Assembly (NCBI RefSeq): GCF_032062105.1
Contig: NW_026931074.1
Location: forward strand, 345,587 to 409,586
Direction of reading: 5' to 3'
Length of the DNA stretch: 64,000 nt
Source: Saccostrea cucullata
Taxonomy: Eukaryota
Both the position numbers and the translations under genes were made by a program. The notes beneath the pieces are model-generated. The model ran no database searches. It saw only the letters and a list, made by a program, of their open reading frames with translations, and had not been told where the DNA came from. This document shows, one piece after another, positions 11,413 to 56,120 of the stretch. The first letter of the stretch is position 1; the number at the start of each line of letters is the position of its first letter.

Positions 11413-11547
11413 ATGCTCAATTCAAAAATTCGAAGACTTGAACACCTCTTACAGTTAAAAGATACCAGAATGTCTGATCTACAAGGACAGTTAGCAAGAG
11501 AGCAGGGTTTGTACTACGTGACCAGCAGGAAGCACATTATTAAATAA
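11413..11547 (+). CDS. SPEF1: SPEF1-like gene C terminal exon, copy b (MLNSKIRRLEHLLQLKDTRMSDLQGQLAREQGLYYVTSRKHIIK*)
   Basis: Tandem duplicate of 11079-11213, 334 bp downstream, with its own acceptor (tattttgtag). Same length (135 nt) and same phase. Likely an alternative last exon or a decaying duplicate. Confidence 0.45.
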   Translation: MLNSKIRRLEHLLQLKDTRMSDLQGQLAREQGLYYVTSRKHIIK

Positions 11548-17861: not shown

Positions 17862-18830
17862 CCAGTCAAAGCGTTCCCAATTAAAACCGTCCCGGTCAAA
17901 GCGTTGCCTGATTTTGGTCAAAGCGTACCATGATTTTGGTCAAAATGTCCCCAGATTTTGGTCAAAGCGCCCCCTGACATATTTTATAGAAATATGATAC
18001 TACAAAACCGCCCCCCGATTTTGGTCAAAGCGTCCCTTGATTTTGGTCAAAGCGCCCCCTGACATATTTTGATAGGAAAACATAGTTTCTAAACCGCCCC
18101 CTGATTTTGGTCAAAGCGTCCCTTGATTTTGGTCAAAGCGCCCCCTGACATATTTTATAGAAATATGATACTACGAAACCGCCCCCTGATTTTGGTCAAA
18201 GCGTCCCTTGATTTTGGTCAAAGCGCCCCCTGATTTTGGTCAAAGCGCCCCCTGACATATTTTGATAGGAAAACATAGTTTCTAAACCGCCCCCTGATTT
18301 TGGTCAAAGCGTCCCTTGATTTTGACCAAAGCGCCCCCAGATTTTGGTCAAAGCGCCCCCTGACATATTTTGACATATTTTTATAGGAAAAATAGTTTCT
18401 AAACCGCCCCCTGATTTTGGTCAAAGCGTCCCTTGATTTTGGTCAAAGCGCCCCCTGATTTTGGTCAAAGCGCCCCCTGACATATTTTGATAGTTTCTAA
18501 ACCCCCCCCAACTGATTTTGGTCAAAGCGTCTCTTGATTTTTGGTCAAAGCGCCCCCTGACATATTTTGATAGGAAAACGTAGTTTCTAAACCACCCCCT
18601 GTATGATTTTGGTCAAAGCGCCCCCACTCAAATTTGTTGTGTGAAAAAATGATGTTATTAAATTGTCCACAAAGCGCCCACTCGTTTTGGTCAAAGAGCC
18701 CCAGACATACTTTGTTTGAAAAAAAAAAATTATGTATTCAATCGCCCCCGAAATATTGGTCAAAGCGTCCCGTGATTTCGGTCTAATCGTCCCCTAATTT
18801 CGACCAAACCGTTCCCTAATATACCGGTAA
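17862..18830 (+). repeat. Left terminal satellite array of the foldback-like element (22-bp units, gattttggtcaaagcgcccc.t)
   Basis: About 40 tandem units with periodic tgacatattttataggaaaacatagtttctaaaccgcccc spacers. ORF 18218-18424 is an artefact of this array. Confidence 0.85.
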
Positions 18831-23299: not shown

Positions 23300-24390
23300 A
23301 AATCGATTTGGATGCGCTTTGAAAATTTGGGGTGGTATTCAAATATAAATTTTCTGTAAGGAGCGCTATATGTTACCAAACTTCAAACGTTGTTTTTCTA
23401 TTAAAAAATATGTCAGGGGGCGCTTTGACCAATATTTGGGGGCGCTTTGACCAAACTTCAAACGTTGTTTTTCTATTAAAAAATATATATTTTGACTAAT
23501 ATTTGGGGGCGCTTTGACCAAAATTTGGGGACGCATTGATCAATATTTGGGGGCATTTTGGAAACTTCGCTTTCTATAAAAATATGTCAGGGGGCGCTTT
23601 GACCAATATTTGGGGGCGCTTTGACCAAACTTCAAACGTTGTTTTTCTATTAAAAATATGTCAGGGGGCGCTTTGACCAAAATTTGGGGACGCATTGACC
23701 AATATTTGGGGGCATTTTGGAAACTTCGCTTTCTATAAAAATATGTCAGGGGGCGCTTTGACCAAAATTTGGGGGCGCTTTGACCAAAATTTGGGGGCGC
23801 TTTGACCAAACTTCAAACGTTGTTTTTCTATTAAAAATATGTCAGGGGGCGCTTTGACAAAATTTGGGGACGCATTGACCAATATTTGGGGGCATTTTGG
23901 AAACTTCGCTTTCTATAAAAATATGTCAGGGGGCGCTTTGACCAATATTTGGGGGCGCTTTGACCAAAATTTGGGGGCGCTTTAACCAAACCTCAAACGT
24001 TTTCTATTAAAAAATATGTCAGGGGGCGCTTTGACCAAATTTTGGGGACGCATTGACCAATATTTGGGGGCAATTCAGAAACTTCGTTTTCTATAAAAAT
24101 ATGTCAGGGGGCGCTTTGACCAAAATCAGGGGGCGCTTTGACCAATACTTGGGGGCGCTTTGACCAATATTTGGGGGCGCTTTGGAAACTTCGTTTTTCT
24201 ATAAAAATATGTCAGGGGACGCTTTGACCAAAATCAAGGGACGCTTTGACCAAAATCAGGGGGCGGTTTCGTAGTATCATATTTCTATAAAATATGTCAG
24301 GGGGCGCTTTGACCAAAATCAGGGGACATTTTGACCAAAATCATGGTACGCTTTGACCGGGACGGTTTTAATTGGGAACGCTTTGACTGG
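23300..24390 (-). repeat. Right terminal satellite array of the foldback-like element (same 22-bp unit, inverted)
   Basis: (agggggcgctttgaccaaaat)n with atatgtcag spacers, the reverse complement of the 17862-18830 array. ORF 23540-23809 is an artefact. Confidence 0.85.
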
Positions 24391-27496: not shown

Positions 27497-28076
27497 TGTA
27501 ACGTTTTTCTCTCCATGGGGTGTTTGTTTCTACCCGCGTCACAAAATATTGTGGATCCCGTGTATAAATTCAGGAACTCTAGATCTTTATAGATCTAACA
27601 TAAGAACAACGACAAAGTTCGTTTCAACGAGTGTATTAACAATATCCAAGAGTAGTTTTACAAATCAATTCCAAGCTATGTATATCAACTCACTAACTCT
27701 CTCTCCTTATATACCCTGTCTGACACCTAACGTGATTTAGGGCACCTAGTTAGGGCGTTAGGCTCCATCGTTAGGGCACCTGTTAAGGCGTTAGGCTCCA
27801 TCATTAGGGCACCCTGTTAGGGCAATCGGCTCCATCATTAGGGCACCTATTAGGGCAATCGGCTCCAAGTATTAGGGCCTCTGCACCATTGTTAGGTATC
27901 AAGACACTTGATACATTTAGCATCTGATAAGCGCCATATTAATTAGGACACTAATTAGACTTCCAAGATAAGGGCGCTAATCAGTTACCATGGTTAGGGC
28001 TTATCAAATAAACAAAATTCTTATCTCTGTTTTATTTATAACAATAGCATTTTTATATAAAAGCAAAAACATTACA
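27497..28076 (-). repeat. 3' LTR (element orientation) of the gag-only LTR retrotransposon
   Basis: tgtaacgtttttctctccatggggtg....aaaagcaaaaacattaca. Contains about 4 tandem subrepeats of about 27 bp (ttagggcacct.ttagggc.ttaggctccatc) at 27740-27900. Confidence 0.85.
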
Positions 28077-28383: not shown

Positions 28384-29286
28384 TCAGTCATCTGAGTTAA
28401 TATAATTCCTTACAGTTTTCTTTTCAACACAATTCAGGTCTCGAGAACTGTCACTTGGTTGAAATCTTCCTCCTTCTCTCTGGTACCATGGGTTGTAAGG
28501 GCGTCCCCTCCTCCCTGGTCCTGCATTGGTACATGTACTTGGGGTTCTCACATTTTTAAAGATACTGTTGAATCCGTCACCCGCGCTTGGAGGTTTGGCA
28601 GTATCCGCAGCTGCTATTTCATTATTCCATTCCCCATCTTCAATCTCATACACAGGCCTATAGCCTGGTTTTGTCTCCTTTGGCAATTCTTTTTCTCCAA
28701 TCCGCAAGCACTCTTCTTGCATCGCATTAAGAACTGCTTCTTGAAGTGTCCTGGGTCTGGTCCGTTTCACTGCAAGTCGAAAATCCCCAGATTGTCCACA
28801 CTTATCTAAGAAGGACTGTATAGCATTTTCTTCAACTAAATCTGGATTTCCTGGATAGGCCCTTCGGTACAAATCTTCGATGGCCTGTCCTAAATCTCGC
28901 AGGGACTCACCCGGTAGTCGTCTCCTTAATTTTACATCCGCAATATATTTTTCTTTCATTGCAGAATGTCCAAATCTTTGATTCATTTTATCCTTTAGTT
29001 GCTCATAATCACTCTGTACAGTAAGGGGCATTCCATAGGCATAGCTCTCGGCCTGTCCTCGCAAGGTGCTAAGTAGAACTCTGCGAGAAGGTCCCCATGA
29101 GTTTAATTCTGAGATGTTTTCGAAATATTGTAGAAACTCATCCCAAACATCATTATTGGCCCCTGAGAAGGTCCTCCTTACTGGATATTCATTGGTTCGT
29201 TGACCAGCATTTGGTGTCGTAAGACTGTTTGTAGGTGTCCCGTCAGTAGTAGGAAATTCAAAATTGTACCCAAGTCCCTGAGGAGA
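28384..29286 (-). CDS. Retrotransposon gag-like protein, about 300 codons open with no pol
   Basis: Hand-translating the frame of ORF 28384-29064 upstream to the TAG at 29287-29289 gives ...SPQGLGYNFEFPTTDGTPTNSLTTPNAGQRTNEYPVRRTFSGANNDVWDEFLQYFENISELNSWGPSRRVLLSTLRGQAESYAYGMPLTVQSDYEQLKDKMNQRFGHSAMKEKYIADVKLRRRLPGESLRDLGQAIEDLYRRAYPGNPDLVEENAIQSFLDKCGQSGDFRLAVKRTRPRTLQEAVLNAMQEECLRIG... This fits the retrotransposon_gag pattern (W..F...F.......L.G.A..W; R.F..GL...I; PRTL.EA). It is followed directly by the PPT and LTR. Confidence 0.7.
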   Translation of the reverse strand, partial: SPQGLGYNFEFPTTDGTPTNSLTTPNAGQRTNEYPVRRTFSGANNDVWDEFLQYFENISELNSWGPSRRVLLSTLRGQAESYAYGMPLTVQSDYEQLKDKMNQRFGHSAMKEKYIADVKLRRRLPGESLRDLGQAIEDLYRRAYPGNPDLVEENAIQSFLDKCGQSGDFRLAVKRTRPRTLQEAVLNAMQEECLRIGEKELPKETKPGYRPVYEIEDGEWNNEIAAADTAKPPSAGDGFNSIFKNVRTPSTCTNAGPGRRGRPYNPWYQREGGRFQPSDSSRDLNCVEKKTVRNYINSDD

Positions 29287-29920: not shown

Positions 29921-30500
29921 TGTAACGTTTTTCTCTCCATGGGGTGTTTGTTTCTACCCGCGTCACAAAATATTGTGGATCCCGTGTATAAATTCAGGAA
30001 CTCTAGATCTTTATAGATCTAACATAAGAACAACGACAAAGTTCGTTTCAACGAGTGTATTAACAATATTCAAGAGTAGTTTTACAAATCAATTCCAAGC
30101 TATGTATATCAACTCACTAACTCTCTCTCCTTATATACCCTGTCTGACACCTAACGTGATTTAGGGCACCTAGTTAGGGCGTTAGGCTCCCTCGTTAGGG
30201 CACCTGTTAGGGCGTTAGGCTCCATCATTAGGGCACCCTGTTAGGGCAATCGGCTCCATCATTAGGGCACCTATTAGGGCAATCGGCTCCAAGTATTAGG
30301 GCCTCTGCACCATTGTTAGGTATCAAGACACTTGATACATTTAGCATCTGATAAGCGCCATATTAATTAGGACACTAATTAGACTTCCAAGATAAGGGCG
30401 CTAATCAGTTACCATGGTTAGGGCTTATCAAATAAACAAAATTCTTATCTCTGTTTTATTTATAACAATAGCATTTTTATATAAAAGCAAAAACATTACA
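29921..30500 (-). repeat. 5' LTR (element orientation) of the gag-only LTR retrotransposon
   Basis: About 99.5% identical to 27497-28076. Differs at about 3 positions (ccatcg/ccctcg, ttaagg/ttaggg, atatcc/atattc). Confidence 0.85.
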
Positions 30501-34146: not shown

Positions 34147-34315
34147 ACAAGAGGCCCATGGGCCACATTGCTCACCTGAGCAAATCTGCTAGGAAAAACC
34201 ACAAATCAGCTCAGTATTGAAAACTTTACCAGGGTGGGGGTTTGAATTTTATACTACTTGAGGATGCCTCTGTATTAATATAGCATATAACTTTACTTTT
34301 CTTGAGCCTTTGGCT
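34147..34315. mobile_element. Short MITE-like member (about 170 bp) of the gctcacctgagc-terminus family, in the last intron of gene A
   Basis: caagaggcccatgggccacattgctcacctgagc.....gagcctttggctcaggtgagc. Inverted termini. The ggcccatgggcc palindrome is shared with 52205 and 6070. Confidence 0.5.
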
Positions 34316-34372
34316 CAGGTGAGCTAAAAAACAAAGAGATTTCAAAACATGTTTGATTTGATTAGAACTGAC

Positions 34373-40345: not shown

Positions 40346-41482
40346 GAATATTTGCCAATTTACAGTATCTAATGCATCACTGCTTTGTTTTCATGATCAA
40401 ATTGTAATAAATTCAAAATTAATGTCTTCTTTCAATTATGATTAAACAACAACCAATGAGATTACATGTTACATTTTATATTACTAAGTTAGTGCTGCTG
40501 TGCTGTTATATATGAAATATTCATGGGGTCGAATATTCTGAATCCATGTTCTTGGTCTTTAAACTACATGACTACATTGATAGTATGATAGAATGACTTG
40601 AGCAAGTGATTCCATAATATATCAATTAATGCTTTTTCCAGCAAGGTAGTGGATATTATCTGAGTGAAGCTAGTGTTCCATGGATGAGTTTGCAAAATAG
40701 CTGTCATTTAAGCCATGATTGTCATGCTTTCTGCATGAAAAACACTTTATAAAATACTGTCATAATTGGTTATTATCCAAGATTAAATATTTTGGTTTTG
40801 GAATGATTTTCTACCTATACAGGTCAAAACTGTCCCCTGGTGTAAAAGAACATTGAATCTGACCAGAATTATGAGGAAGACCAGTAAATTGATCTCTGGA
40901 CAGTGTTATGTATGTTCTCTATCAAACCAAATTAATACAGTCTATCCAATGGCTTTCAAAAAGCCTAAAGAATATTTTTTGATTGGATACAAAGACAAAT
41001 AAGATGTGTAAAATGGAGGTTTGAAGGGAAATTGCAATAGCAGTATGATAAGCTTTGCTAAACTCCGTGCTTAATTATTGCCATAATGTCAGTTCATTAC
41101 AAAAAAAGTCAGTTTTAATAGTAGTGAATTATTGTATGTACATTTCTATTAGGCACACCAAAAATCATTGACCAAACAAGGTTAACTAGAACAGGGCTTA
41201 CAGTCCAAATAAAATAAATATACTGTGAGCCTGTAGATTTATAATGACATCACATTTTGCAAACTCATTATGTCCCTCTTGACTGATATTCTGATATTTT
41301 GGTTTTACAACGAATTTAATGAAAAAAAAAATGGATCAGTAAATTTCTTGCCATGAAAAACTAGAAGGCAAGCATTTATGACAAACAAACTCTATATATA
41401 CCTATCTAAACTGGCAGGCAGTTAATCTATAATGCTGTCAAATCCTGACACTCTAAGATTAAATGTTTCTTTATTGATATTC

Positions 41483-42111
41483 ATGGCACGCCAAATTCAC
41501 AAAAATGAGATAAACCTAGTTTCACAATTGATAAACTAGGTTTATCGACTGTAAACTATAGTTTACAAAACGTAAACTATACTTAACGATTTGTTAAGTA
41601 TAGTTTTCATCTGTAAAACTATATTTAACGGTTGTTAACTATAGTTTACGAATGCTAATCTAAGTTTATCTGTCTGTAATAAGCGTTAACAACAGATTTT
41701 GTTGATAAACATAGATTCACATTTGTAAACTATAGTTTACAATCGAAAACAATCGTAAACTATAGTTATAGTTAAGAGTTGTTAATATAGTTTCACAAAT
41801 CGTGAAACTATATTTATCAGATCGTTAACTATAGTTAACGGTTTGTATAAACTATAGTTTACAAATCGTGAAGCTGTATTTATCAGATAATCTATGTTTT
41901 GCAATTGAAAATGATTGTTTTCGGTGTTAAGTATAGTTTACGGTTGTGAAACATAGATTATTATTATGGTTTACAGATGTAAAATATAGATTAACGTTGT
42001 TAACTATAGTTTACAGTCTGTAAACTATAGTTTACAACCGATAAACGGTTAAACCTAGTTTATCGACTGTGAAACTATGTTTAGCTCATTTTCGTGAATT
42101 TGGCGTGCCAT
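41483..42111. mobile_element. MITE (about 630 bp) with about 28-bp TIRs and an interior made of palindromic gtaaactatagtttac-type units
   Basis: TIR atggcacgccaaattcacaaaaatgag (41483-) matches the reverse complement of ctcattttcgtgaatttggcgtgccat (-42111). Possible TSD gatattc on both sides. Interior has more than 15 copies of (c)gtaaactatagtttac(aa) and gttaactatagtt variants, each itself a palindrome. Lies in intron 1 of gene A. Confidence 0.6.
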
Positions 42112-42787
42112 AGATATTCTCCACATCACTCAACAGATTTGGTCCAAACTTTTCAGAGGCCTTAATCATTATGAATTTAATTCACATAAAAATATAAAAA
42201 ATATTTACGGACTTTATTGAGGCATGAGCAATTCCAAGAATAACTTATAAGTAGTAACATCCATTTTAGATTTCTAGTTCTACATTTATAAATATAAGTA
42301 TACATGTAGCAGATATCTTACTGCATGCTTTTGGACAGCTAAATGGCATTATCATGTATGTAACAATGTTTATATACTTATGTAGGGGATTAACATCAAT
42401 AAAGAAAGTATACCAAGAAGTTGAAATGGATTCTTTTTTATGAAATGTAGAAGAGTAATAAAAATCCTTACTTGGAAGCACCAGGAGTCAAAATTCAAAA
42501 ACTATTTTTATGACTATAACTATTTAGCATATTATCATCAAGTTTGATGGAACGCTGTATTATGTAGATGTAGATGTATTTGTGAATGTATTTCAGTGCA
42601 AAAACATGACTGACAAGTATGAACTTATTCTGTTCAGCAATATGATGAATATTTACAGATAAAATAAAACTGCCACAACCAGTAGTTAGCAGAAGCAGTA
42701 CCAGATTTCAACATTAAATTTGCCATTTAATTGAAGTCTCCTTGTTTTCTTTGGGCTATCTTTAATTTGTCATTTGAAGGATCTTAC

Positions 42788-42887
42788 CTCCATCAGAGAA
42801 GTCCCTAGATATGTTTTTCTTTGGCCTGCTGAGTGGTATACTGTCGACCCAAGCATAAAGCTCCTCCAACTCCGCGTCGTCAGCCAT
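42788..42887 (-). CDS. SPEF1: SPEF1-like gene A exon 1: MADDAELEELYAWVDSIPLSRPKKNISRDFSDG
   Basis: ATG at 42887-42885 (minus). Donor gtaagat after 42788. Matches the SPEF1 N-terminal signature LY.W.D.IPLSRPK.N..RDFSDG as remembered. Confidence 0.7.
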
Positions 42888-42896
42888 GATAACCGG

Positions 42897-43120
42897 CCTG
42901 CCTAATTGAAGACCTACAGGTAATTGAAGACCTAGAGAAGACCTACGGAAGACCTACAAAAATGGGGGATATATACAGCAAAACTGATATGATATTCTGA
43001 TTAAGCATGTCCTAAATATGTAAAATACACAAAAAAGTTTTATAAAAAGAAGTTTAAATGTGTATTTTTTAAGCTCGGTAAGGGGAACTATAGACGATAC
43101 GGAAAGAACGATAACTCTGG
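42897..43120 (+). repeat. Left arm of an about 225-bp inverted repeat containing (GAAGACCTAC)x4 direct repeats, immediately upstream of the gene A start codon
   Basis: ctgcctaattgaagacctacaggtaattgaagacctagagaagacctacggaagacctacaaaaatgggggatatatacagcaaaactgatatgatattctgattaagcatgtcc... is about 90% identical to the reverse complement of 44600-44869. Confidence 0.8.
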
Positions 43121-44599
43121 CTGACTTGTCTTGTAAACACCAACACGCTCATTTATGTGAAGTTTATAGGAAGAATTATATATGTATATGACATAATAAA
43201 AAAAATGCAAATGATTTTGTTGAGTTTTTTAATTATGAATTATGATAAAGAAATCAGCTGAATGATGAATTTTGATGAAGGTAAAAATATCAATAATTAT
43301 CATTATTTCATTTATCAAATTAATATTCTACTTGAAATCTATAGTTAATATTTAATAAATATTGTAATTCTTTTAATATGTTTTATGGGATAAATATTAA
43401 GTATTCAAGTTCAAATTATTGATATGTATGCTGTGGATTTGTCTCAATTAACCAATATTACTCTGTACTAAGGGCTTCGATCTTCACTAATTTGTTGTAT
43501 TATACACAGACACCCTGAGGATATATCCGTGTTTTGATTGCAATTATCAACACATCCCACTTGCTCTGATGAATGTTAATTTGCAGTCAACAGAGCAAAG
43601 ATATAAAAAAAATATTTATTTTATATCTTAAAAATGCTAGCAAGAATAAACAAATAAAATTATTGTGCATTTATTCAGAATATAACTTTATACTAAAATG
43701 AATTACGTTTTGAATTTTTTTTTTAATATTCAAAATGGTCATCTTTTTTCAATATAACACATTTATATGACATTCACGAGGAATATTTAATAACTTAATT
43801 AAATGTATATTTCCAGATAACATGCTGTATGCCAAGAAATAGGCACTATAATATGAAACATAAGGATTTATTTCTTTTACATTTTGAGCCAAAATATACA
43901 TGTACATTATATCAAATCTTGAAGATACCAGGTATACCATTCAATAATTAAATTAAAAGAAAATACACACTTTTTAAAATTGAATAAAATAATAAACACG
44001 CATGTTATCACACATAAGAAATGCATGCATATTTTAAAAAAAAATAATGATGCTTTGACTCGGGGGAAATAAGATTTTGAAAGTGATTATGTCTATGTTC
44101 TTGAAAAATTACTTCAAATTCTTTTAACTGCAATTTTAAAATTTTCATTCTCTACATAAATGCAAATCTTATAAAAATTTCCAGATGTTATAAATGACAT
44201 TACTAGGTATTATTAATAACAAGAACACAAATCATTTATGAATTTTTATTAATGATCAACAATTCAAACCTGAACTAAATATTATACTGATCTATTTATA
44301 AACACATATAGAATACTAAATATAACGTACATGTATATACAAGTGTATGTATTTATAATGATTTTATGATTGACATAATATATTATGGTATTATAAATTA
44401 TGTACAGTGTTTACAATTTTACTGATTTTAATAAATAATTTTTTTTAACAAAAAAGAATTGTTTCTGACTGAATATTTCATTTTATTAATATTTTTTTTT
44501 TTATCTTTGATGTATATATAAAGTATCTCCAATGATTTTTTTTAACATTATTTTTTATTTACATTTTTCTGATAATTACATTTTCTTGATGTTTTGGTG

Positions 44600-44869
44600 A
44601 ACAGCTGATTTGTTATTTACGCGAGTTATCGTTCTTGCTGTAGGTCTTCTGAGAGAAGAAATAGTTCCCCTTACCGAGCTTAAAAAATACTCTTTAAAAC
44701 TTCTTTTTATAAAACTTTTTTGTGTATTTTATATATTTAAGACATGCTTAATCAGAATATTATATCAGTTTTGCTGTATATATCCCCCATTTTTGTAGGT
44801 CTTCCGTAGGTCTTCTGTAGGTCTTCAATTACCTGTAGGTCTTCAATTAGGCATGACCATGATAACTGT
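44600..44869 (-). repeat. Right arm of the inverted repeat, about 600 bp upstream of the gene B start codon
   Basis: ...ggggatatatacagcaaaactgatataatattctgattaagcatgtcttaaat...tttgtaggtcttccgtaggtcttctgtaggtcttcaattacctgtaggtcttcaattaggcatg. Flanks an extremely AT-rich 1.5-kb core (43120-44600). Confidence 0.8.
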
Positions 44870-45471
44870 ATCAATTGGTGTTATTCTGTCCAAATAAAAT
44901 CTATTTTAAGAAAATCTGAAGGTTCCCCGGCGTCATTATTTGATTAGTCAATAACATGTGTAAGATAGCAAAGGTATATATGAAAAATTAAGTTTACTTA
45001 CACTGTATATAAGAAAGGAGGACAAGATTATCACTAAATACACAAAATCATAATAAAGCGTCCGTCGCAACGAAACTCCCACAATTCCCATATACGGGAA
45101 ATACAGGATAGCTCGTTCATCAACTCGGAAAAATAACAAAACCATGCCAGCATATTGCAGATGAAATATTTACAACAATAGATAAAATATGAATTTTTAC
45201 TATGAATAACTTGACTTACTGTTATTTTAGGATAAACTATGCGTTTTTTGAAGTGTAATACCTAATTCGACTTTTTTACGGACTACTTATCAACGTAGAC
45301 AATTTTCGGAATTTATGATGCATGACGGGAAATTCGTTGACAACAAAACAGTCATGGACGCTTTCTACGATCTTCTGTGTATTTAGCGATAAAAGACGTC
45401 ATTTATTTCTGTAAAATCTATACAGTATGTCATGATTGTAACATTTTCATAGAACTAAGTGTAAAAGAACA

Positions 45472-45613
45472 ATGTCTGTAGATAAAATCCACCCAGTTGA
45501 ATCCGGCCTGGATTATTTCGACGATGCAGAGTTGGAGAATCTTTACACATGGATTGACAGCATCCCTCTTTCCAGACCGAAGAAAAACATAGCAAGAGAT
45601 TTTGCTGATGGAG
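45472..45613 (+). CDS. SPEF1: SPEF1-like gene B exon 1: MSVDKIHPVESGLDYFDDAELENLYTWIDSIPLSRPKKNIARDFADG
   Basis: ATG at 45472. Donor gtatat at 45614. Same SPEF1 N-terminal signature as gene A exon 1. Confidence 0.7.
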
Positions 45614-46096: not shown

Positions 46097-48918
46097 TTTA
46101 ACATAGGTCGCGGGTTTGCTGACATCATTAAAACTGGGTACGCAATTTATATGATTTGGGCGACTTTATTGTGCACATCTGATTATGACGTCACGGTGAG
46201 AAAGGGAAAAATTCAGTGCATTATTTAGCTATAACTTTTGTAAAAATGGGTAGTTTAGTGTAACAATATTCATAGAACAGGCTGAAGTTATAAAAAAATA
46301 ATGAAGGCTTATTTTGATTCGGCCATCCTTAAAAAATTGTTTTTTTGCGGTAACGCGACCGACTCACCAAAATCCACCCTACTGGATTTTTTTTATCGGT
46401 TCAAAGAATTTTTTTTTTTTTTTACGTATCCATTTTCTATTTTTATCCAATTGACATTTTTTTACGTCTCCATTGCACCTACGCTGTTTTTAAAAAAAGA
46501 ACTGATGTGTTCTGATATTTGAACAATAAAAGATTGGATTCATTAAGAATGCCTTAATTTTCTTGTTTGATTAGTAACTTAAAGTGAAATCTAAGACATA
46601 GTTAATACCTCTATATAATCGAAATTTATTTCTGACATTTTGTCTCCAAAAAAAAAAAAAATAAGCCTACCTACCTACCCACACCTAAAATGATGAGGCG
46701 CGTTACCGCAAAAAAAAATTTTTTTAAGGATGGCCTTCCAATGACCAACACTGAAAGTGTTAGAAAGCGTTTCATTATGTGTTATTAATTGCATCTTCTC
46801 GGGTCTATTCTGAGAGCACATGTACTTGTTTCGAAATAAATTTTAACCCTTGTATCATGTATAATTTATAAATATTAAATACATGTATTAAATGTGTATA
46901 ATTATAAAACAGGTTATCTAACTCCGAATTACACTCGATACCCCCTCCTCAGAAAAGCACTCATTTTAGTCACAGGCACCTGACGTTACTTATTTTTCTT
47001 TCACACACAAAAAAAAAAATATACACATACCTAATAATAAACGAGTATTATTAGGTATGTGTGTTTTTTTTCATATTAAAAGAAAAATAAAAGTCATTTT
47101 GTGATTTTAGTGTACACTTTCAGTGGAAATGCACTAACAAACTGTTTATTACCATTGTCTTCTACAATAATTTATCTACACAACCATTTATGGAATGCAT
47201 GTCTTTGTTTTCATTTATCTCCGTAAACAGCGTCAAAACTTTGCTCACCGATGGAAAGTCGAACTCAATATTTATGAAACGGTATGTGCTAATCTCGGAC
47301 GAATCTATATACAGGTTGACCACAAATTAAAAACTGCTAAGGCACTACCGGGGTAATACTACTGAAATATACATTTTTGAACGGCATTGACCTCTTGTAA
47401 ATAACCACAGACAAGTAGGATATGACCCCCTCCCTTCTTTCCATTTCTTACTTCCTAACGCGGGGGGGGGGGGGGGAATAAACGTTTTCCATTTTTTAAA
47501 ATTTCAACTCCACCCTATATGTGCATGTTGATTTAATCGAAATATTTACTAATCGGAGGCACATAAAGAATTATATAAATGGAAATCTGAAAAGGAAGAA
47601 GAGGGTTTTTCAAATTTATCAATGCCTGCATATTCCATGATTATCTACGTATTAGATAGTGATCATGCAAGTGAAGATAAAGTGAGGCATGGAGATTTTT
47701 AAGAACAAATTGCAAGCTGTCTCTTCTTATGTATCAGTCGAAAACGAAAAACATGTATTTAAAAACAGCGTAAAGAGATAAAAGGGTTACATTATTAATC
47801 ACATGCAATAGGTATTAAAAATCTAAAATAGGAAAACCCCCAGAAAAAACAGAAAGGGGGGGGGGGTCGATACTCAATTGCCTGTATAACTAACGGCATG
47901 CGTTGTTTTTAGTTACATGTACATATTTTATTTGCTGCATTGCTTTCCATATTCATTCAGTACAATTAATGTTATATGTATAAATTGAAAGTCTAAGAAC
48001 AAAATAAAATCTGCCTGTTGATTGCGCCAAACAAAGCGTAAAAACATATTTCGGGGTTGGGGTTGGGGGTGGTAGTAGTCCTTGACTTTTCAAACAAACT
48101 TAGATCACAGATCTGCGATTTCAACGGGGATGGGAAGTCTGCCTTTTCCAGAGGGGAATACAAGGTCACTTTTATTTTACAAATTCTGGCGTGAAAATCC
48201 GCGCATGAATAAAAAAAACGGAAACGGTAAGAAATAAACACATAAAGAAAATATATATATAAAAAAAAACTAAAGGACTGATTGTTGGTTTACGCCTTTT
48301 ATGTGAATTTTCACTAATATTAGAGGAAATAAGCTGAAAGGGAAAAATGTCTAATAGTTATTTTATTGAATTATTATGATACTGGTCACTTGAAAGCAGA
48401 TATACGTGAATTTCCCTTTTCTTAAAATCCGTACTTTTTTTTTTTTTTTTTTTGTGCTCTTTTTAGTTTTATTTCAACGCCAAGCATGACGTCACGATAT
48501 TTTATGACGTTGTTTTTAAAAATGCTACATTTGTCAATATCAAAGCAATTATCTACAATTAAATTACGAAAAAATGAACCCGAACACATATTAATTTTTT
48601 TACATAGATTTATTTCAAATCAATTCTATTTTTAAATACCAAAGGATAAACAAATTCATCTGCACGATTTAAAAGTTAATGATATTTTTTAAATCAAAAT
48701 GAAAACAAGCCAAAAACGACGTTTTTCCTATATAATTCAATAGAATACCATTGAAAATGTAACTACAACAATGACATCTTTGGAATTCAATTACACAAAA
48801 ACGGTGCAGACGAATTTTATAAAATTTTCAGAGAATGGAAATCAAAGGTAGAGAAATTATATAGGTAATTTTCATGGTATGTTTTCGAACACTTTTAAAA
48901 GCCCTGTAAACCCGCGAC
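46097..48918. mobile_element. Putative non-autonomous DNA transposon (about 2.8 kb) defined by 23-bp terminal inverted repeats, in intron 1 of gene B
   Basis: tttaacataggtcgcgggtttgc (46097-46119) versus gtaaacccgcgacctacgttaaa (48896-48918), 21/23 complementary. Interior has no ORF. It carries a nested MITE (46321-46737), long G homopolymers (47461 about 15 G, 47851 about 11 G) and CpG/TGACG clusters (48470-48520). Confidence 0.35.
46321..46737. mobile_element. MITE-like element (about 417 bp) with about 37-bp TIRs
   Basis: ggccatccttaaaaaattgtttttttgcggtaacgcg (46321-46357) versus cgcgttaccgcaaaaaaaaatttttttaaggatggcc (46701-46737). AT-rich interior with T-runs. Confidence 0.55.
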
Positions 48919-49890: not shown

Positions 49891-50222
49891 GCCGAGTTTA
49901 GGTAAATCGATGCACCTATTTCCTCAGCTAAAAATTGAGTTGGGTCATTTTTAGTACATAGTATGTTTTTATTTGGATCTTTTACAGTACAATTTTTCAT
50001 ATGACATTACTAATTTACTATTATATTTCAGTATGTTGTAATTATGGTTGACAAAATCAAATGTTTATATATGTATAAGAAACTATTCTGGAATATGTTT
50101 TTGGTATACACTAAAATCAATGTATTCAGTTTATTGTGAAATCTGAAACCAAAGTATTTCATCCTTTGTCACACAAAAATTAAAAAAATCATTGATGGTT
50201 GTCACTGATGATTGTCCTGTAG

Positions 50223-50334
50223 TTTTGGTGGCCGAGATAGTCCAGAATTTCTTTCCTCAGCTGGTGCAAATGCACAACTACACCCCGGCGAGTTCAACCA
50301 GTCAAAAGAGGGAGAACTGGCTCCTCCTCAACAG
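50223..50334 (+). CDS. SPEF1: SPEF1-like gene B exon 2, variant a (112 nt): (V)LVAEIVQNFFPQLVQMHNYTPASSTSQKRENWLLLN(R)
   Basis: Acceptor tcctgtag, donor gtacagg. Phase 1 in, phase 2 out. Joins exon 1 (..DG|V) and exon 3 (R|KVFKKLNF). Confidence 0.6.
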
Positions 50335-51122
50335 GTACAGGAAGGTCATGCTCTGCTGCCTTTGTGGTTTTTGGTGCTGTAGTTCACTTAACATCACCTG
50401 GAAATCTCAGTGACATGTCACATACTTAAGTTCTAGTATTTGGGACTAACACTCTTGTCTATAATTATGATTATAGATATACAGCTTTTAATTTTATTTT
50501 ATATATATCTTTGAGGTTACTTTTAATTTGTAAATTTTAACCATCTTGTTTATTTTCATGCTGTTTGCCCTATGCTGAATTAATTCCTATAGTAACTGAT
50601 ATCCAGGTGATTCCCTTTGTAGCAGCTGATAGCGTCTGTATCAATGTCTTATAAATATGTCTAGGATTAATGTAGTTTATATCTATACTGTATGTTGTCC
50701 CTCAGTTCTAATGTAGTACTGAGTAGTCACCCTTTACTGTACAATTAAGACATGCTAGATCTCTCATTTTGTCATATCTGTCATATTAATCAGGGCTTTC
50801 AGAATCTGCTGAGATATGGTACTTTTACCTGAATCAAATCATGATTGTTAATTATCAGCCAAAATATTTGTTGGAGAAAATTTGATAAAATTGCTTCCAT
50901 AAGGTTCCCCTATTTTTGTCAAAGTACCATGTTTCACATCTTTTTGAAAGCACTGATTAAACTTACCTCAGTTGATATATATATATTTTTTTTACTGATT
51001 TTATTTTTTTTCTTAAAAACTAATGTAAATAATTTGATACTGTTAGTAAGCTAGGTTTTGTGTGTGTGTATTCCTGTGTTAGAACTTTGTTAGAAATGTG
51101 CTTTTCCAAAAATTCATTTATT

Positions 51123-51127
<5 letters not shown>

Positions 51128-51169
<42 letters not shown>

Positions 51170-51215
51170 CATTTTGTCCGTCGTCCGTCCGTCTGTCCGT
51201 CTGTAAACTTTTCAC

Positions 51216-51252
<37 letters not shown>

Positions 51253-52188
51253 TGACCAAACTTGGTACAAAGCATCCTTGGGTAAAGGGGAATTTAAATT
51301 GTTAAAATGAAGGGACATATCCCCTCGCAAGGGGAGATAATCAAGAAAAGACAAAAATAGGGTGGGGTCATTAAAAAATCTTCTTCTCAAGAACCACTGG
51401 GCCAGAAAAGCTGAAACTTATGTGGAAGCATCCTGGGGTAGTGTAGATTCTAAATTGTTCAAATCATGACCCCCGGGGGAAGGGCGGGGCCACAATGGGG
51501 AATCAAAGTTTTACATAGAAATATATAGGAAAAATCTTTGAAAATCTTCTTCTCAAGAACCACTGGGCCAGAAAAGCTGAAACTTATGTGGAAGCATCCT
51601 GGTATAATGTAGATTCTAAATTGTTCAAATAATGACCCCCGGGGGATGGGTGGGGCCACAATGGGGAATCAAAGTTTCATATAGAAATATATAGGAAATA
51701 TCTTTGTCAAGAACCACTGCTGAAACTTATGTGGAAGCATCCTGGTATAATGTAGATTCTAAATTGTTCAAAAAATGACACCCGGGGGGAGGGCGGGGCC
51801 ACAATGGGGAATCAAAGTTTTATATAGAAATATATAGGAAAAATCTTTGAAAATTTTCTTCTCAAGAACCACTGGGCCAGAAAAAGTGAAGCTTATGTGG
51901 AAGCATTCTTGGGTAGTGTTAATTCTAAATTGTAGGAATCATGACCCCCGGGGGAAGGGCGGGGCCATTATAGGGAATCAAAGTTTTACATAGAAATATA
52001 TAGGAAAAATCTTTGAAAATCTTCTTCTCAGGAACCACTGGGCCAAAAAAGCTGAAACATATGTGCCCATGGAAGGATCATGGGGTAGTGTAGATTTCAA
52101 AATGTCTAAATTATGATCAGTGGGGTAGGGTGGGGATGCATTATGTATAACAAGGGTGAAATCTGGTAAAGAACAGAATGGTCAAAGC

Positions 52189-52225
<37 letters not shown>
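51128..52225. mobile_element. Repetitive element (about 1.1 kb) with agctcacctgagc / gctcaggtgagc inverted termini, a (GTCC)n tract and an internal about 140-bp tandem array
   Basis: Starts tttagctcacctgagccgaaggctcaagtgagc, then gtccgtcgtccgtccgtctgtccgtctg. About 6 tandem units (cttcttctcaagaaccactgggccagaaaagctgaaacttatgtggaagcatcctgg...gacccccggggga.gg.ggggccacaatggggaatcaaagtt) span 51230-52090. Ends ...gcttctcaggtgagcgatgtggcccatgggcctcttg. The same terminus occurs at 34147-34315 and 6062-6095. Confidence 0.5.
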
Positions 52226-52229
<4 letters not shown>

Positions 52230-53065
52230 TTTTTCTCTTTTTTTTTGAAAGTATTAAAGATAAAATATTTTGATGTAGACATAGGTCATTATTTCCACAC
52301 AGTACAGTGTATGAGAAAAGGGTGGGGCGGCCCCATACTAGCCAAGTGTAGTAAAGTAAATGGATGTCAAGTACTACCACCTGAGTGTAAACTATAGCTA
52401 GCTGTTATATAGCATGTATAACTCCTAGCTTTTCCAGTTATAGCATGTAATCCATGTATAGCTCTTAGCTCTTCCAGTAAAATATCAAGTAATCCGAGTG
52501 TAAAAAAAGTCATTTAGCTCAGCATTTTGGTCATTAGATATCGAAACAATTCAGTTGTCAGGATGACAGTGGTATATAAATTCTGTGTCAGGAGTATGAT
52601 TTAATGTCATGAAGCTATACTGTAAAACAGAAAATGCCAGCGTTCTTCAGAGTTCAAGTGTATATCCAGTATAGGACTTTTGTCTGTAGCTATAACTGTT
52701 AAAGACGTTTATCTGTATGTAACTGTTGAAGACTTGTCTGTATGTAAGTGTTAAAGCATACAATATTTCACTGGCCATTACTTAAATTTAACAGAAAGAG
52801 ATTTAAATTACACTTTATGTTTCAGGTCAAGGTCAAATGTCAGTACAGATTAAGGCCACTCAGACATTGAAGGGATTATTGCTTCCAATAGATCATGTTT
52901 TATTCATATATCATTTTGAACAATTTTGATTTCAGGTCAATCAAGTGGAATTTAGGTGTATGTGTGGCAGACTCACTATGATAGCGTCATATCTGACCAG
53001 ACATACATAACATATGTATCATTTACTGGCAATATATGCTTTACATTCTGCTTAATTACTTTCAG

Positions 53066-53177
53066 TACTGGTTTCTGAGATTATGTATCATAAATTCCCC
53101 CACCTGGTGCAGAAACACAACTATAGCACGGCAAACTCCACCTCAAAAAAGATGGAGAATTGGTTTTATATGAACAG
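53066..53177 (+). CDS. SPEF1: SPEF1-like gene B exon 2, variant b (112 nt): (V)LVSEIMYHKFPHLVQKHNYSTANSTSKKMENWFYMN(R)
   Basis: Acceptor tactttcag, donor gtaacaag. Identical length and phases to variant a. Not listed as an ORF in the track because it is short, but it reads open in the exon frame. Confidence 0.55.
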
Positions 53178-54469
53178 GTAACAAGTGGAGACCCTTGTAC
53201 AGATTTAACCTGGTTTGTTTGGTTCCCTATTAAATCAGAACCTCTCCCCTCCTTATGACATATAGCTAGAACACCCCCCTATACAAACACTTCTCCGAAC
53301 CCCACTTCTTTATATCTAATTTAATTTGTCAAAGACTGATAAATTGCAAATTGTTTTGACATTCAAAATTAAACTTGAATTTAAATTTAAACATATACAT
53401 GCTTATGTAAACAGAAAACATCGTTAGAATACTCAGTAGTACATTTATCTTCTTATTAAAAGCATGCTTTACCATAAGAAAAGGAATAGTTTACAAAATT
53501 TCCAAACTCTTTTTGACATTGACAAACCACTCCCATCACTTTAAGTTTATAAATTTCAAAGCTTGTCTGAGATTAATGTTATGGAGTCCTAAAATCCAAA
53601 AGTATGAGTACTATGATCATTACATGAAGTTGTACAAGTAACTTAATTTTTTCTTAAAATGGAACATTTTGGTCTTAGACTTTCTTACTGAACATGAGTT
53701 GTTATATATTGAAAATGACACATTTGTTAGAAAAACAGAAAACAGTACCTTTTCAGCCCCACCCCCCACCCTCGCCCCTTCCTTTCAGACTCAGATGCAT
53801 GTAAATAATTTTGCATGTAAATAATTTTGTCATTAAAGAAATGTTCATCATGTAATTCACCATTTTATAAAGAAAGCTCTGAAGGTTCAATTTTAAACAT
53901 TATAGTTTTACCATATTTCATGAAATCATGTTGAAATTGAATTCACTATTTTTCCAATGCAGTGTTTTTGAAACCCAAAGCCAACACCTGGAAGATTTGT
54001 TCATTAATTTCTCTTGAATTTTAACTAAAATACTTACACTCAGTGCCACGATCATAAGCCTATCTCTGTATCAATGATCTAGTGACTGAAATGAGGAGAA
54101 TTGTTAAACACATGATACAGTATATAGGAGTTCATTACTGAGTCCTTGCAGATAAACTTAGGATATGATAAATATATGTATATCACAGATGGGTCAGTGA
54201 AGAAGTGGATATATTCTCATATACATTGTATTGTGAATTTCTTTGTGCCTTCCATATTGATATTTGTTCTTTTAGGGCAGTTACCTTTTATATGGAGTTC
54301 ATTGTTAAATACACAACACACATAATTAAAACAAAGATATTTATTTTCAGTAAAAGTATAGGTAATGATTCTCTTATAAAATTAATATCTAAATAGCTGT
54401 ATCTCACTTCCATTCTCAATGACCATGTTGTGTAGGATTGCTCCATGAAAATTAAAATTTTTATCCAGT

Positions 54470-55590
54470 CTTTGCTGGCTTAAGGCTGTGAGATTTGTAT
54501 TTAGGAGGCTTTTATTGAGTTGGTTAGATATAGGTAGGAGTCTTAAATTGAGTCATCTCAAACTAGGCTGTGAGATATTTTAGCCTTAATTTGTTTAAGA
54601 TCTCTCTGAATAGGCTGTGAGATATTTTTATATAAGAGCCTTTGTTTGAGTTATCTCAGACCAGACAGTGAGATACCCAGGAATTTATAAGCCTTAATTT
54701 GTTGAAGTCCTCTCAAACTAAGTTTGTGGGATATATTTATATATTAGCCTTTGTTGAATGTTTATAGTCCTCTCTGACTAAGGCTAAGCTGTGAGATATA
54801 TTTATTTGAGGCCTTGGTTTGAGTCATCTTTGACTAGACAGTGTGATTTATTTATAAAGGAGTCTTTGTTTAAGTTCTCTCAGATCAGGCAGTGAGATAA
54901 ATAGGATTCTGTTTGAGTTCTTTCAGACAAGACTGTGAGATATACAATTTTGTTTGAGTCCTCTCAGATCAGGCTGTGGGATATATAGGATTCTGTTTGA
55001 GTCCTCTCAGACCAGGCTGTGAGATAAACAATCCTGTTTGAGTCCTCTCAGACTAGTCTGTGAGATATATAGGATTCTTTTTGAGTCCTCTCAGACCAGG
55101 CTGTGAGATATATAGGATTCTGTTTGAGTCCTCTCAGACCAGGCTGTGAGATAAACAATTCTGTTTGAGTCCTCTCAGACCAGGCTGTGAGATATATAGG
55201 ATTCTGTTTGAGTCCTCTCAGACCAGGCTGTGAGATAAACAATTCTGTTTGAGTCCTCTCAGACTAGGCTGTGAGATATATAGGATTCTCTTTGAGTCCT
55301 CTCAGACCAGGCTGTGAGATATACAATTCTGTTTGAGTTGTCTCAGACTAGGCTGTGAGATATATAGGATTCTGTTTGAGTTCTCTCAGACTAGGCTGTG
55401 AGATATATAGGATTCTGTTTGAGTCCTCTCAGACCAGGCTGTGAGATATGTAAGATTCTGTTTGAGTCCCCTCAGACCAGGCTGTGAGATATATAGGATT
55501 CTGTTTGAGTCCTCTCAGACCAGGCTGTGAGATATATAGGATTCTGTTTGAGTCCTCTCAGACTAGGCTGTGAGATATAGGGAGTCTCTG
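54470..55590. repeat. Minisatellite of about 25 units of 41-43 bp in the gene B intron between exon 2b and exon 3
   Basis: Unit gagtcctctcagaccaggctgtgagatatataggattctgttt with variant ...gagataaacaattctgttt. Copies are degenerate at the 5' side (54470-54900) and homogenised at the 3' side. ORF 55048-55242(-) is an artefact. Confidence 0.85.
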
Positions 55591-56120
55591 TGTCATCTAA
55601 GACTAAACAGTGAGGTATAAGACATAAATAGAAAACCTGTTATTATGGACTAGGCTAGAATATAAAGCAGGACTGAGTGTTGTGTACCCAAAAACAAATC
55701 TTTTAGCTGGCTTATCCCATTCAACTTCTCTATTAAAACTAATTCATATAAATATATATTTCCCCCTTTCTAATAATTTCAGTGCTGCGTGTTATATTGT
55801 TTATTCTTTCTTTTCTGTAATTTGCAATTGTTTATGTTTCTTCTGCTTTTTTGGTGGCTATGTAATGTTTATTTAGAATAATATCATGGTACATGTATAT
55901 TACATTCTATGAATTAATGTATTCACTGACAGTTGAACTATTTTTAAACATTTGAGGAAAAGTGAGAAAAGTAAATGTGTTTCAAAAGATTTTTTCAAGA
56001 AAATATGTATTAAGAATGCTTGAACTTAAAAAATTAAGATTTATAAATTTCAAACTATTATAAATATCCATATTTTTTCCACATATGAATATTTTATAAA
56101 ATCATTCTTCGTTGCTACAG

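What the first reader, a model, noticed from the sequence alone, without database searches (positions are those of the whole stretch)
42897..44869. 225-bp inverted repeats with (GAAGACCTAC)n arrays bracketing an AT-rich 1.5-kb core between the two divergent start codons
The arms (42897-43120 and 44600-44869) are about 90% identical as reverse complements. Each contains four tandem 10-mers, gaagacctac. The gene A ATG sits 10 bp from the left arm. Next to the right arm, a 10-bp segment (ccatgataac) is the exact reverse complement of gene A's gttatcATGg start context, and gene B's actual first exon lies 600 bp further on. This could be the duplicated promoter of an inverted gene duplication, possibly a bidirectional regulatory module with a repeated TF-binding 10-mer. 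It could also be a foldback/MITE that inserted between the genes. The high arm identity relative to the diverged coding exons suggests gene conversion or recent origin.
Basis: seen in the sequence. Interest (0 to 1): 0.55.

Follow-up and report, generated by a model that had tools for sequence, protein, structure and literature searches.

The report
Transposon inserted before oyster SPEF1 gene
The inverted repeats are the two ends of a 2-kb non-coding "cut-and-paste" transposon that landed six bases upstream of the start codon of one of two head-to-head cilia/flagella (SPEF1) genes in an oyster-like genome; this is an ordinary mobile-element insertion, not a duplicated promoter.

Summary
Two arms of about 225 nt are 96% complementary over 193 nt, each has a GAAGACCTAC array, and they bracket a 1.5-kb core of 23% GC.

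Its fallback (foldback/MITE insertion) is right.
- "ccatgataac" is a direct repeat flanking the whole structure, i.e. a target-site duplication of 8-10 bp.
- Eleven other copies of the arm end occur in public metagenome contigs. The nine whose DNA was compared have unrelated flanks, with homology starting at the same tip.
- The orthologous locus in Magallana gigas (10 contigs) has the same head-to-head SPEF1 pair only 552 bp apart, with no trace of the element or its 10-mer.
- An M. gigas transcript shows an unspliced 105-nt 5'UTR across the equivalent site.

The true duplicated promoter is a conserved module of about 65 nt with a TATA-like box upstream of each gene, outside the arms.

The anatomy best fits a non-autonomous Foldback-like, probably Mutator-superfamily, element: long composite TIRs, two alternative 7-nt tips, an extra repeat unit at the inner arm end and a short TSD. 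Gene A's coding exons are intact. How it is now expressed is unknown. Low novelty.

The parts
42788..42887 (-). Gene A (SPEF1-like paralog) exon 1, ATG at 42887..42885, donor GT at 42787-42786
   Evidence: ORF and translation; tblastn with M. gigas SPEF1, 90% aa identity; blastn to M. gigas transcript L127
42884..42893 (.). Left copy of the flanking direct repeat CCATGATAAC (target-site duplication; minimal 8-bp reading is ATGATAAC, 42886-42893). It contains gene A's start codon.
   Evidence: Only two occurrences in the window, both on the + strand; P about 1.2e-3
42894..43117 (.). Left terminal inverted repeat: 7-nt tip CGGCCTG (42894-42900), shared CCTAATTGAAGACC..., and a 10-mer array at 42908-42957 (units at 42908, 42926 [variant], 42937, 42948)
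43118..44622 (.). AT-rich non-coding core (1505 bp, 22.6% GC). Longest ORF is 63 aa. No similarity to the interiors of other copies.
44623..44856 (.). Right terminal inverted repeat: 10-mer array at 44795-44844 (minus strand), an extra 10-mer unit at the inner end (44640-44649), and a degenerate tip (reverse complement GGTCATG, 44852-44858 if the tip is 7 nt)
44857..44866 (.). Right copy of the direct repeat CCATGATAAC. It carries an orphaned copy of gene A's ATG (44860..44858, minus strand) that opens a 5-codon uORF (MVMPN*).
44867..45003 (-). Inferred original 5'UTR of gene A, now separated from the ATG by the element
   Evidence: Colinearity with M. gigas L129 6038-6142, which is the unspliced 5'UTR of transcript L127. 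Base-level similarity is only marginal.
45013..45088 (-). Conserved promoter module of gene A (GGGAGTTTCGTTG...GGACGCTTT...TGTGTATTTAGTGATAA), 88% identical to M. gigas
45322..45400 (+). Paralogous promoter module of gene B in inverted orientation. Together with 45013-45088 this is the real relic of the inverted promoter duplication.
   Evidence: (I13)
45472..45613 (+). Gene B (SPEF1-like paralog) exon 1
   Evidence: ortholog P0017

Best explanation
Window 42894-44856 is one 1,963-bp non-autonomous class II (cut-and-paste, TIR) DNA transposon. It inserted into the 5'UTR of SPEF1 paralog A, 6 nt upstream of the ATG, and duplicated 8-10 bp of target (CCATGATAAC, which includes the ATG). The arms of about 225 nt are its terminal inverted repeats. 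The GAAGACCTAC units have a fixed layout in every copy examined (four outer units spaced 18/11/11 nt, plus one at the inner end of the arm wherever that end is preserved). By inference they are the binding sites for a transposase supplied in trans. Its anatomy is that of a Foldback-like element of the Mutator (MULE, possibly Phantom-type) superfamily. The insertion happened in the window's lineage after its split from Magallana gigas. It moved gene A's ATG about 2 kb away from its conserved TATA-containing promoter module. Shown: TIRs, flanking direct repeat, dispersed copies, empty orthologous site, lack of coding capacity, intact gene A exons. Inferred: the superfamily, the transposase-binding role of the 10-mers, and the consequences for gene A expression.
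For: (1) The 10-nt direct repeat immediately flanks the inverted repeat and occurs nowhere else in the window, P about 1.2e-3. (2) Dispersed copies: L039 came from a metagenome scan. Ten short ORFs read from unrelated flank-encoded N-termini into the same arm translation. Nine contigs were fetched (L039, L139-L146). Their arms are 77-90% identical to the window's and mostly 88-99% identical to one another (about 80-84% for the nested, diverged copy L145). Homology starts at the same tip. The 800-nt flanks of seven of them are mutually unrelated, and L145 and L146 match the other copies only within the element. Every contig breaks inside the element, as assemblers do at multi-copy repeats. (3) Empty orthologous site: 10 Logan contigs of M. 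gigas (or a very close relative) carry both SPEF1 paralogs head to head. The ATGs are 552 bp apart in L129, against 2,584 bp here and 611 bp once the element and one repeat copy are removed. There is no match to the element and no GAAGACCTAC. A conserved block lies about 115-150 nt upstream of ATG-A in both species. (4) M. gigas transcript L127 nt 1-211 maps contiguously at 100% identity to L129 6038-6248, so the ancestral 5'UTR was unspliced and uninterrupted. (5) No ORF longer than 63 aa. (6) L145 and L039 share interior sequence beyond the arm at different loci, so the arm is the end of a larger element. (7) Superfamily cues: TSD of 8-10 bp and TIRs of about 225-260 bp match the MULE definition of 8-11 bp TSD and TIRs of hundreds of bp (PMC6446971). 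Two alternative 7-nt tips (CGTCCTG type in 5 copies, GGGAATA type in 6) lie outside the shared repeat. One extra repeat unit sits at the inner arm end. Arm identity is about 90-96%. All of this parallels the Tm1 Mutator/Foldback family (PMC3169594).
Against: This is the only complete copy seen, so TSD length (8, 9 or 10 bp) and the pairing of tip types within one element are unresolved. The right tip is degenerate (GGTCATG), and both window tips look like type 1. No transposase or autonomous partner was found, so the superfamily assignment rests on structure alone, and an 8-bp TSD would also fit hAT or P-type elements. The external copies come from unidentified hosts in metagenomes. The empty site comes from a different genus (exons about 76-84% nt identical), not from an allele of the same species. 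The 5'UTR alignment across the junction is only marginal (25 of 500 shuffles reach the score). Unlike classical FB and Tm1 elements, the number of repeat units does not vary between copies.
Confidence: 0.9

Rival explanations
1. The arms are the duplicated promoters of the inverted SPEF1 gene duplication, kept similar by gene conversion, with the 10-mer acting as a transcription-factor site in a bidirectional regulatory module.
For: The two genes are inverted paralogs and the left arm abuts ATG-A.
Against: The arms are asymmetric relative to the two ATGs (6 nt versus about 615 nt). Paralogy is limited to exons at 70-77% identity while the arms are 96% identical. The element and the 10-mer are absent from the M. 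gigas ortholog, which keeps a different conserved promoter module. The arm is found at 11 or more unrelated loci. Gene conversion does not create a flanking direct repeat.
Confidence: 0.02
2. Two independent insertions of a short (about 230-260 bp) element in opposite orientations, enclosing 1.5 kb of pre-existing intergenic DNA, rather than one composite element.
For: The external contigs each show only one arm. Interiors beyond about 260 nt differ between L039, L140 and the window.
Against: No direct repeat flanks either single arm, whereas one flanks the whole structure. The 1.5-kb core has no counterpart in M. gigas, where promoter module and ATG are about 115-130 nt apart and the 5'UTR is continuous. 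L039 and L145 share interior sequence beyond the arm at different loci. Both arms have their tips facing outward.
Confidence: 0.04
3. It is a TIR transposon, but of another superfamily (hAT-like or P/Galileo-like) rather than Mutator/Foldback.
For: If the tips are 7 nt, the TSD reads as 8 bp (ATGATAAC). That is the hAT length and fits the hAT target pattern nTnnnnAn (own knowledge). Galileo shows that long, internally repetitive TIRs also occur in the P superfamily (PMC3573991).
Against: The tips CGTCCTG and GGGAATA are not the hAT YARNG ends (own knowledge), and hAT TIRs are normally short. Galileo makes 7-bp TSDs. Two non-complementary tip types outside the repeat have been described for Mutator-like elements (PMC3169594).
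Confidence: 0.3
4. Assembly artefact or a spontaneous palindromic (fold-back) duplication created by replication or repair at this locus.
For: Long inverted repeats can be produced by chimeric long reads.
Against: The arms differ by 8 substitutions and a 12-nt indel and enclose a unique core. Homologous arms exist in independent public assemblies.
Confidence: 0.01

Closest known systems
Tm1 Mutator/Foldback family of root-knot nematodes (Gross & Williamson 2011, PMC3169594)
   Same: Composite long TIRs with an outer array of short tandem units. One additional unit at the inner end of the TIR. Two different 7-nt tips lying outside the inverted repeat. TSDs of 8-10 bp. The two TIRs of one element are imperfectly identical (about 93% there, 90-96% here). 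Most copies are non-coding.
   Different: No sequence similarity. The unit is 10 nt (spaced 11/18) rather than about 14 nt. Unit number is fixed (4+1) in all 11 ends examined rather than variable. Pairing of the two tip types within one element has not been shown, and in the window both ends look like type 1. No Phantom-type transposase has been linked to this family.
Mutator-like elements (MULEs) in general, including non-autonomous MULEs (Dupeyron et al. 2019, PMC6446971); reported in all mollusc genomes analysed (Martelossi et al. 2023, PMC10294476)
   Same: TIRs hundreds of bp long, TSD within 8-11 bp, insertion close to a gene's 5' end, and a variable interior between conserved TIRs.
   Different: No MULE transposase domain is present in this copy, and none was found in the window.
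Drosophila Foldback (FB) and Galileo elements
   Same: [quoted passage not shown]
   Different: In FB the arms make up most of the element and are built largely of tandem repeats of variable number. Here the arms are 23% of the element and only about 50 nt of each arm is repetitive. Galileo is a P-superfamily element with 7-bp TSDs (PMC3573991).
Introner-type and MITE-derived introns (PMC11282704; PMC9860276)
   Same: A non-autonomous TIR element with a TSD inside a transcribed region, with splice-site-like sequences near both ends.
   Different: Splicing has not been shown. It sits in a 5'UTR, not a coding exon. There is no evidence that family members are preferentially found as introns.

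Membership tests
Class II TIR DNA transposon (non-autonomous) | Terminal inverted repeats at both ends | tested here: met
   193 nt at 96%, extending to 219/231 nt at 90.5%
Class II TIR DNA transposon (non-autonomous) | Target-site duplication directly flanking the ends | tested here: met
   CCATGATAAC occurs twice, both on the + strand, and abuts the tips. Length is 8-10 bp depending on how the right tip is read.
Class II TIR DNA transposon (non-autonomous) | Multiple copies at unrelated genomic sites, with homology ending at the same terminus | tested here: met
   11 external arm ends (L039, L139-L146, P0069, P0070). The flanks of the nine fetched copies are unrelated to each other and to the window.
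Class II TIR DNA transposon (non-autonomous) | Empty site at an orthologous or allelic locus | tested here: met
   The M. gigas-type locus lacks the element: 552 bp between the ATGs, with a conserved block and a continuous 5'UTR. The comparison is with another genus, not a same-species allele.
Class II TIR DNA transposon (non-autonomous) | No transposase ORF in the copy | tested here: met
   Longest ORF is 63 aa
Mutator/MULE superfamily | TSD of 8-11 bp (PMC6446971) | tested here: met
   8-10 bp at the single complete copy
Mutator/MULE superfamily | Long TIRs, commonly hundreds of bp (PMC6446971) | tested here: met
   About 225 nt here and about 260 nt in L039 and L140
Mutator/MULE superfamily | An autonomous family member encodes a MULE DDE transposase | not testable with these tools
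   No eukaryotic genome collection was searchable by DNA. No complete external copy was recovered. The window has only two ORFs of 130 aa or more, neither with a Pfam hit.
Foldback-like (FB / Tm1 type) | Composite TIR containing tandem short repeats | tested here: met
   Four GAAGACCTAC units spaced 18/11/11 plus an inner unit
Foldback-like (FB / Tm1 type) | Repeat-unit number varies between copies and between ends | tested here: not met
   The same 18/11/11 layout is seen in the external copies and both window arms. The exceptions are small: L145 shows three units, and L039's first unit is mutated.
Foldback-like (FB / Tm1 type) | Asymmetric short terminal motifs outside the inverted repeat, one type per end (Tm1 A1/A2) | tested here: inconclusive
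   Two 7-nt tip types occur at about 1:1 among single ends (5 CGTCCTG-like, 6 GGGAATA). Their pairing within one element was not observed, and the window copy has CGGCCTG and GGTCATG.
hAT superfamily | 8-bp TSD with short TIRs ending in YARNG (own knowledge) | tested here: not met
   An 8-bp TSD is possible, but the tips are CGTCCTG/GGGAATA and the TIRs are about 225 nt
MITE (strict sense) | Small size, typically under about 800 bp (own knowledge) | tested here: not met
   The element is 1,963 bp, so it is better called a non-autonomous element
   6 nt versus about 615 nt from the two ATGs, and absent in M. gigas. A different module of about 65 nt meets both criteria.
Introner-like spliceable transposon | The element is removed from transcripts by splicing | not testable with these tools
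   Only consensus-like sites were found: donor CAG|GTAATT at 44832 and acceptors at 42954, 42943, 42932 and 42914. No RNA data exist for the source species.

The most novel reading that the evidence does not exclude
The element behaves as a newly gained 5'UTR intron. Because the ends are inverted repeats, a transcript crossing the element in either orientation first meets CAG|GTAATT about 25 nt inside the upstream end. Just before the downstream end it meets a run of pyrimidine-rich TAG|G acceptors, which are the reverse complement of the GAAGACCTAC array. Pairing of the two arms of about 220 nt in the pre-mRNA would bring these sites together. Gene A, whose exons are intact, would then still be expressed from its original promoter. 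Only a 5-codon uORF (from the duplicated ATG) and a few dozen nt would be added to the leader. That would make this a metazoan example of a transposon family pre-equipped to be spliced out.
Probability: 0.2. Interest if true: 0.45.

Novelty: new member of a known kind. Interest (0 to 1): 0.2.

Why it matters
Mainly as a correction: the conspicuous inverted repeat is a mobile element, not regulatory architecture. The real conserved promoter modules of the head-to-head SPEF1 pair lie next to it. For genome annotation it defines the ends and repeat layout of a bivalve long-TIR transposon family, which may or may not already be catalogued. It also flags an insertion that separates a conserved ciliary gene from its promoter by 2 kb without visible decay of the gene. 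That is a natural test case for how such insertions are tolerated: by splicing, by a new promoter, or as a null allele.

Tried and rejected
- Self-BLAST of the element against the 64-kb window found no other copy.
- The metagenome scan for the paired 10-mer returned more than 120 loci, but only L039 was truly related. L047, L064, L077, L073 and L112 are unrelated minisatellite or chance matches.
- Viral-contig scans gave 6 chance hits and then none.
- Prokaryote genome scans gave none and then one chance 21-mer (L128, no extension).
- Exact look-ups of the exon-1 read-through ORFs of genes A and B were not on record, so the source species appears to be absent from the collection.
- A 766-aa chimeric translation of the arms gave no hits.
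- An X-box (RFX) motif scan of the reconstructed 611-bp intergenic region found no match, so it says nothing about promoter position.
- The M. gigas 5'UTR does not align to the window by BLAST. A local alignment test was only marginal, so the empty-site argument rests on colinearity instead.
- Literature searches for SRR4183546 and PRJEB16362 found nothing, so the host of the metagenome copies is unidentified.
- No complete external copy was recovered, despite using all 12 contig look-ups.
- Pfam found nothing on the window's two largest ORFs.

Full report
OBSERVATION

The described structure is present. The repeat finder reports arms 42899-43091 and 44661-44853 (193 nt, 96% complementary, 1,569 nt apart). 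BLAST extends them across one 12-nt indel to 42899-43117 / 44623-44853 (90.5%). GAAGACCTAC occurs 8 times in the window, all within the arms, against 0.04 expected. The left arm has three exact units plus one variant, GAAGACCTAG. The right arm has four outer units plus one at its inner end (44640-44649). Spacing is 18/11/11 nt. The core (43118-44622) is 1,505 bp at 22.6% GC.

The flanking genes are head-to-head SPEF1/CLAMP-like paralogs with the CH_2 domain PF06294. Gene A is on the minus strand, with its ATG at 42887..42885. Gene B is on the plus strand, with its ATG at 45472.

THE KEY DETAIL

On the + strand the same 10-mer sits at 42884-42893 and at 44857-44866. These are its only two occurrences in 64 kb. 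It is therefore a direct repeat flanking an inverted repeat, which is the signature of a target-site duplication. Random 25-mer pairs from this window share a word of 10 nt or more with P about 1.2e-3.

IS THE ARM MOBILE?

No second copy exists in the window. A metagenome scan for the paired 10-mer gave mostly chance hits. One contig, L039, matches the whole arm (about 240 nt, 78-79%), with homology beginning at the tip and no SPEF1 exon in its flank.

A first protein-space probe failed because of a candidate cap. The index-free representative search used the 40-aa ORF that spans the outer right arm. It returned eight short ORFs whose N-termini are unrelated but which all converge on ...LIEDLQVIEDLQKTYGRPTK(I/M)GDIYIKSDAILLIGIS. 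A focused homology search added two more.

Eight of their contigs (L139-L146) were fetched, making nine with L039.
- Each carries one arm end.
- Each contig terminates inside the element.
- Arm identity is mostly 88-99% among them and 77-90% to the window.
- The 800-nt flanks of seven of the nine are mutually unrelated, and L145 and L146 match the other copies only inside the element.
- L145 and L039 also share interior sequence beyond the arm while having different flanks. The arm is therefore the end of a larger element, not a free-standing unit.

EMPTY ORTHOLOGOUS SITE

The closest protein to gene A (P0005) belongs to a cluster that contains Crassostrea/Magallana gigas SPEF1, XP_011443091.1. 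A cluster member (P0053, an exon-3 read-through ORF identical to that protein across the exon) led to ten genomic Logan contigs, L129-L138.

L129 (12.7 kb) holds both paralogs, with all exons in the same order and orientation as the window. The two ATGs are 552 bp apart (5590 and 6143), against 2,584 bp in the window. Removing the element and one repeat copy leaves 611 bp in the window. No part of the element and no GAAGACCTAC occurs in any of the ten contigs.

A non-coding block is conserved at 88% (L129 5953-6028 = window 45088-45013). It lies about 115-150 nt upstream of ATG-A in both species, once the element is removed from the window.

The M. gigas transcript L127 maps its first 211 nt contiguously at 100% identity to L129 6038-6248. 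The ancestral exon 1 therefore had an unspliced 105-nt 5'UTR starting just downstream of that block. Base-level alignment of that UTR to the window's right flank is only marginal. The argument rests on colinearity.

THE REAL DUPLICATED PROMOTER

Within the 611-bp segment, a module of about 65 nt (GGGAAWTTCGTTG...GGACG...TGTATTTARYGATAA) is present upstream of each gene in inverted orientation. It is conserved in both species (part of it is pair I13). Its TATTTA lies about 35 nt upstream of the 5' end of the M. gigas transcript, consistent with a TATA box (inference).

By contrast, the two genes resemble each other only in exons, at 70-77% nt identity. The 96%-identical arms therefore cannot be a relic of that old duplication.

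ANATOMY AND CLASSIFICATION

Eleven termini were aligned: two from the window and nine external. Universal homology starts at CCTAATTGAAGACC. It is preceded by a 7-nt tip of two kinds.
- CGTCCTG-like: L039, L143, L144, L139 (CATCCTG), L145 (AGTCCTG), and the window's left end (CGGCCTG).
- GGGAATA: L140, L141, L142, L146, plus P0069 and P0070 by back-translation.
- The window's right tip is degenerate (GGTCATG).

With 7-nt tips, the duplication is most consistently read as 8 bp (ATGATAAC), with the two extra matching bases belonging to the right tip. Lengths of 9-10 bp cannot be excluded.

Four features parallel the Tm1 Mutator/Foldback family (PMC3169594) and meet the structural MULE criteria of an 8-11 bp TSD and TIRs of hundreds of bp (PMC6446971):
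- long composite TIRs;
- an extra repeat unit at the inner arm end;
- two tip types at about 1:1 among single ends;
- a TSD of 8-10 bp.

Galileo shows that long repetitive TIRs alone are not diagnostic: it is a P-superfamily element with 7-bp TSDs. MULEs are reported in all mollusc genomes analysed (PMC10294476).

Differences from FB and Tm1: the unit number is fixed (4+1) in all copies, and the arms make up only 23% of the element. The element has no ORF longer than 63 aa, so it is non-autonomous. No transposase could be linked to it.

CONSEQUENCE FOR GENE A

All gene A exons are present without internal stops or frameshifts. Amino-acid identity to M. gigas SPEF1 is 72-90% in the well-conserved exons and 56-68% in the divergent middle ones. 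The duplication preserved the 6 nt upstream of the ATG.

A transcript from the native promoter would have to cross 1,963 nt containing 34 ATGs. On gene A's sense strand the element offers a donor-like CAG|GTAATT at 44832. It also offers four pyrimidine-rich TAG|G acceptors at 42954-42914, with no ATG between them and the start codon.

Splicing, a transposon-borne promoter, and a null or hypomorphic allele all remain possible. None can be tested without RNA data. Transposon-derived introns with TIRs and TSDs have precedent (PMC11282704).

VERDICT

The promoter-duplication reading is rejected and the transposon reading is accepted. This is a new, or at least unnamed here, member of a known kind of element, of low general interest. 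Two by-products are useful: the true promoter modules of the SPEF1 pair, and a defined long-TIR family in bivalves.

Noticed in passing
window 45013-45088 (-) and 45322-45400 (+); L129 5940-6040 and 5635-5735: A conserved promoter module of about 65 nt with a TATA-like TATTTA sits upstream of each SPEF1 paralog in inverted orientation. It is conserved between the window species and M. gigas, and is the likely core promoter pair of the head-to-head genes.
   Followed up: yes
window 40026-39898 and 39416-39300 (gene A); 50222-50335 and 53062-53178 (gene B); L129 6891-7054, 7726-7931, 4261-4459, 2967-3092: Both paralogs carry two tandem versions of exon 2 (part of the CH domain), and both versions are conserved in M. 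gigas. The M. gigas transcript L127 uses only the second. These are candidate mutually exclusive exons that predate the gene duplication.
   Followed up: partly
window 9673-9747, 11079-11210, 11413-11493 (+): A third locus has similarity to the C-terminal coiled-coil exons of SPEF1, with the last-exon-like segment present twice in tandem. It may be another paralog or a pseudogene.
   Followed up: no
window 12819-14100; 17900-18820 and 23375-24390; 51375-52135; 54523-55619: Several satellite-like tandem arrays, e.g. with a period of about 161 bp at 12.8-14.1 kb. The 17.9-18.8 kb and 23.4-24.4 kb arrays are related to each other in opposite orientation.
   Followed up: no
window 27497-28076 and 29921-30500: A pair of 580-bp direct repeats, 99.5% identical, flanks a 226-aa ORF (28384-29064, minus strand) that has no Pfam hit. 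It looks like an LTR-type or other recently duplicated structure.
   Followed up: partly
window 41477-42117 and 46990-47090: Long imperfect palindromes (about 640 bp at about 70% identity in gene A intron 1, and about 100 bp in gene B intron 1), unrelated in sequence to the element studied. Other hairpin-type repeats appear to be common here.
   Followed up: no
window 34147-34331 and 51123-52224: Short segments of 31-34 nt, 97% identical, containing GCTCACCTGAGC and GGCCCATGGGCC palindromes are shared by introns of gene A and gene B. They are probably fragments of another interspersed repeat.
   Followed up: no
window 7087-7295 and 6237-6280; L039 380-594; window 51224-51396; L139 2622-2780: Other interspersed repeats are shared at 73-87% between the window and the metagenome contigs that carry the arm. 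This indicates that those contigs come from a related (bivalve) host genome.
   Followed up: partly
L145 425-890: One external copy of the arm is itself interrupted by a nested insert containing a 155-nt palindrome (418-572), i.e. one transposon nested inside another.
   Followed up: partly
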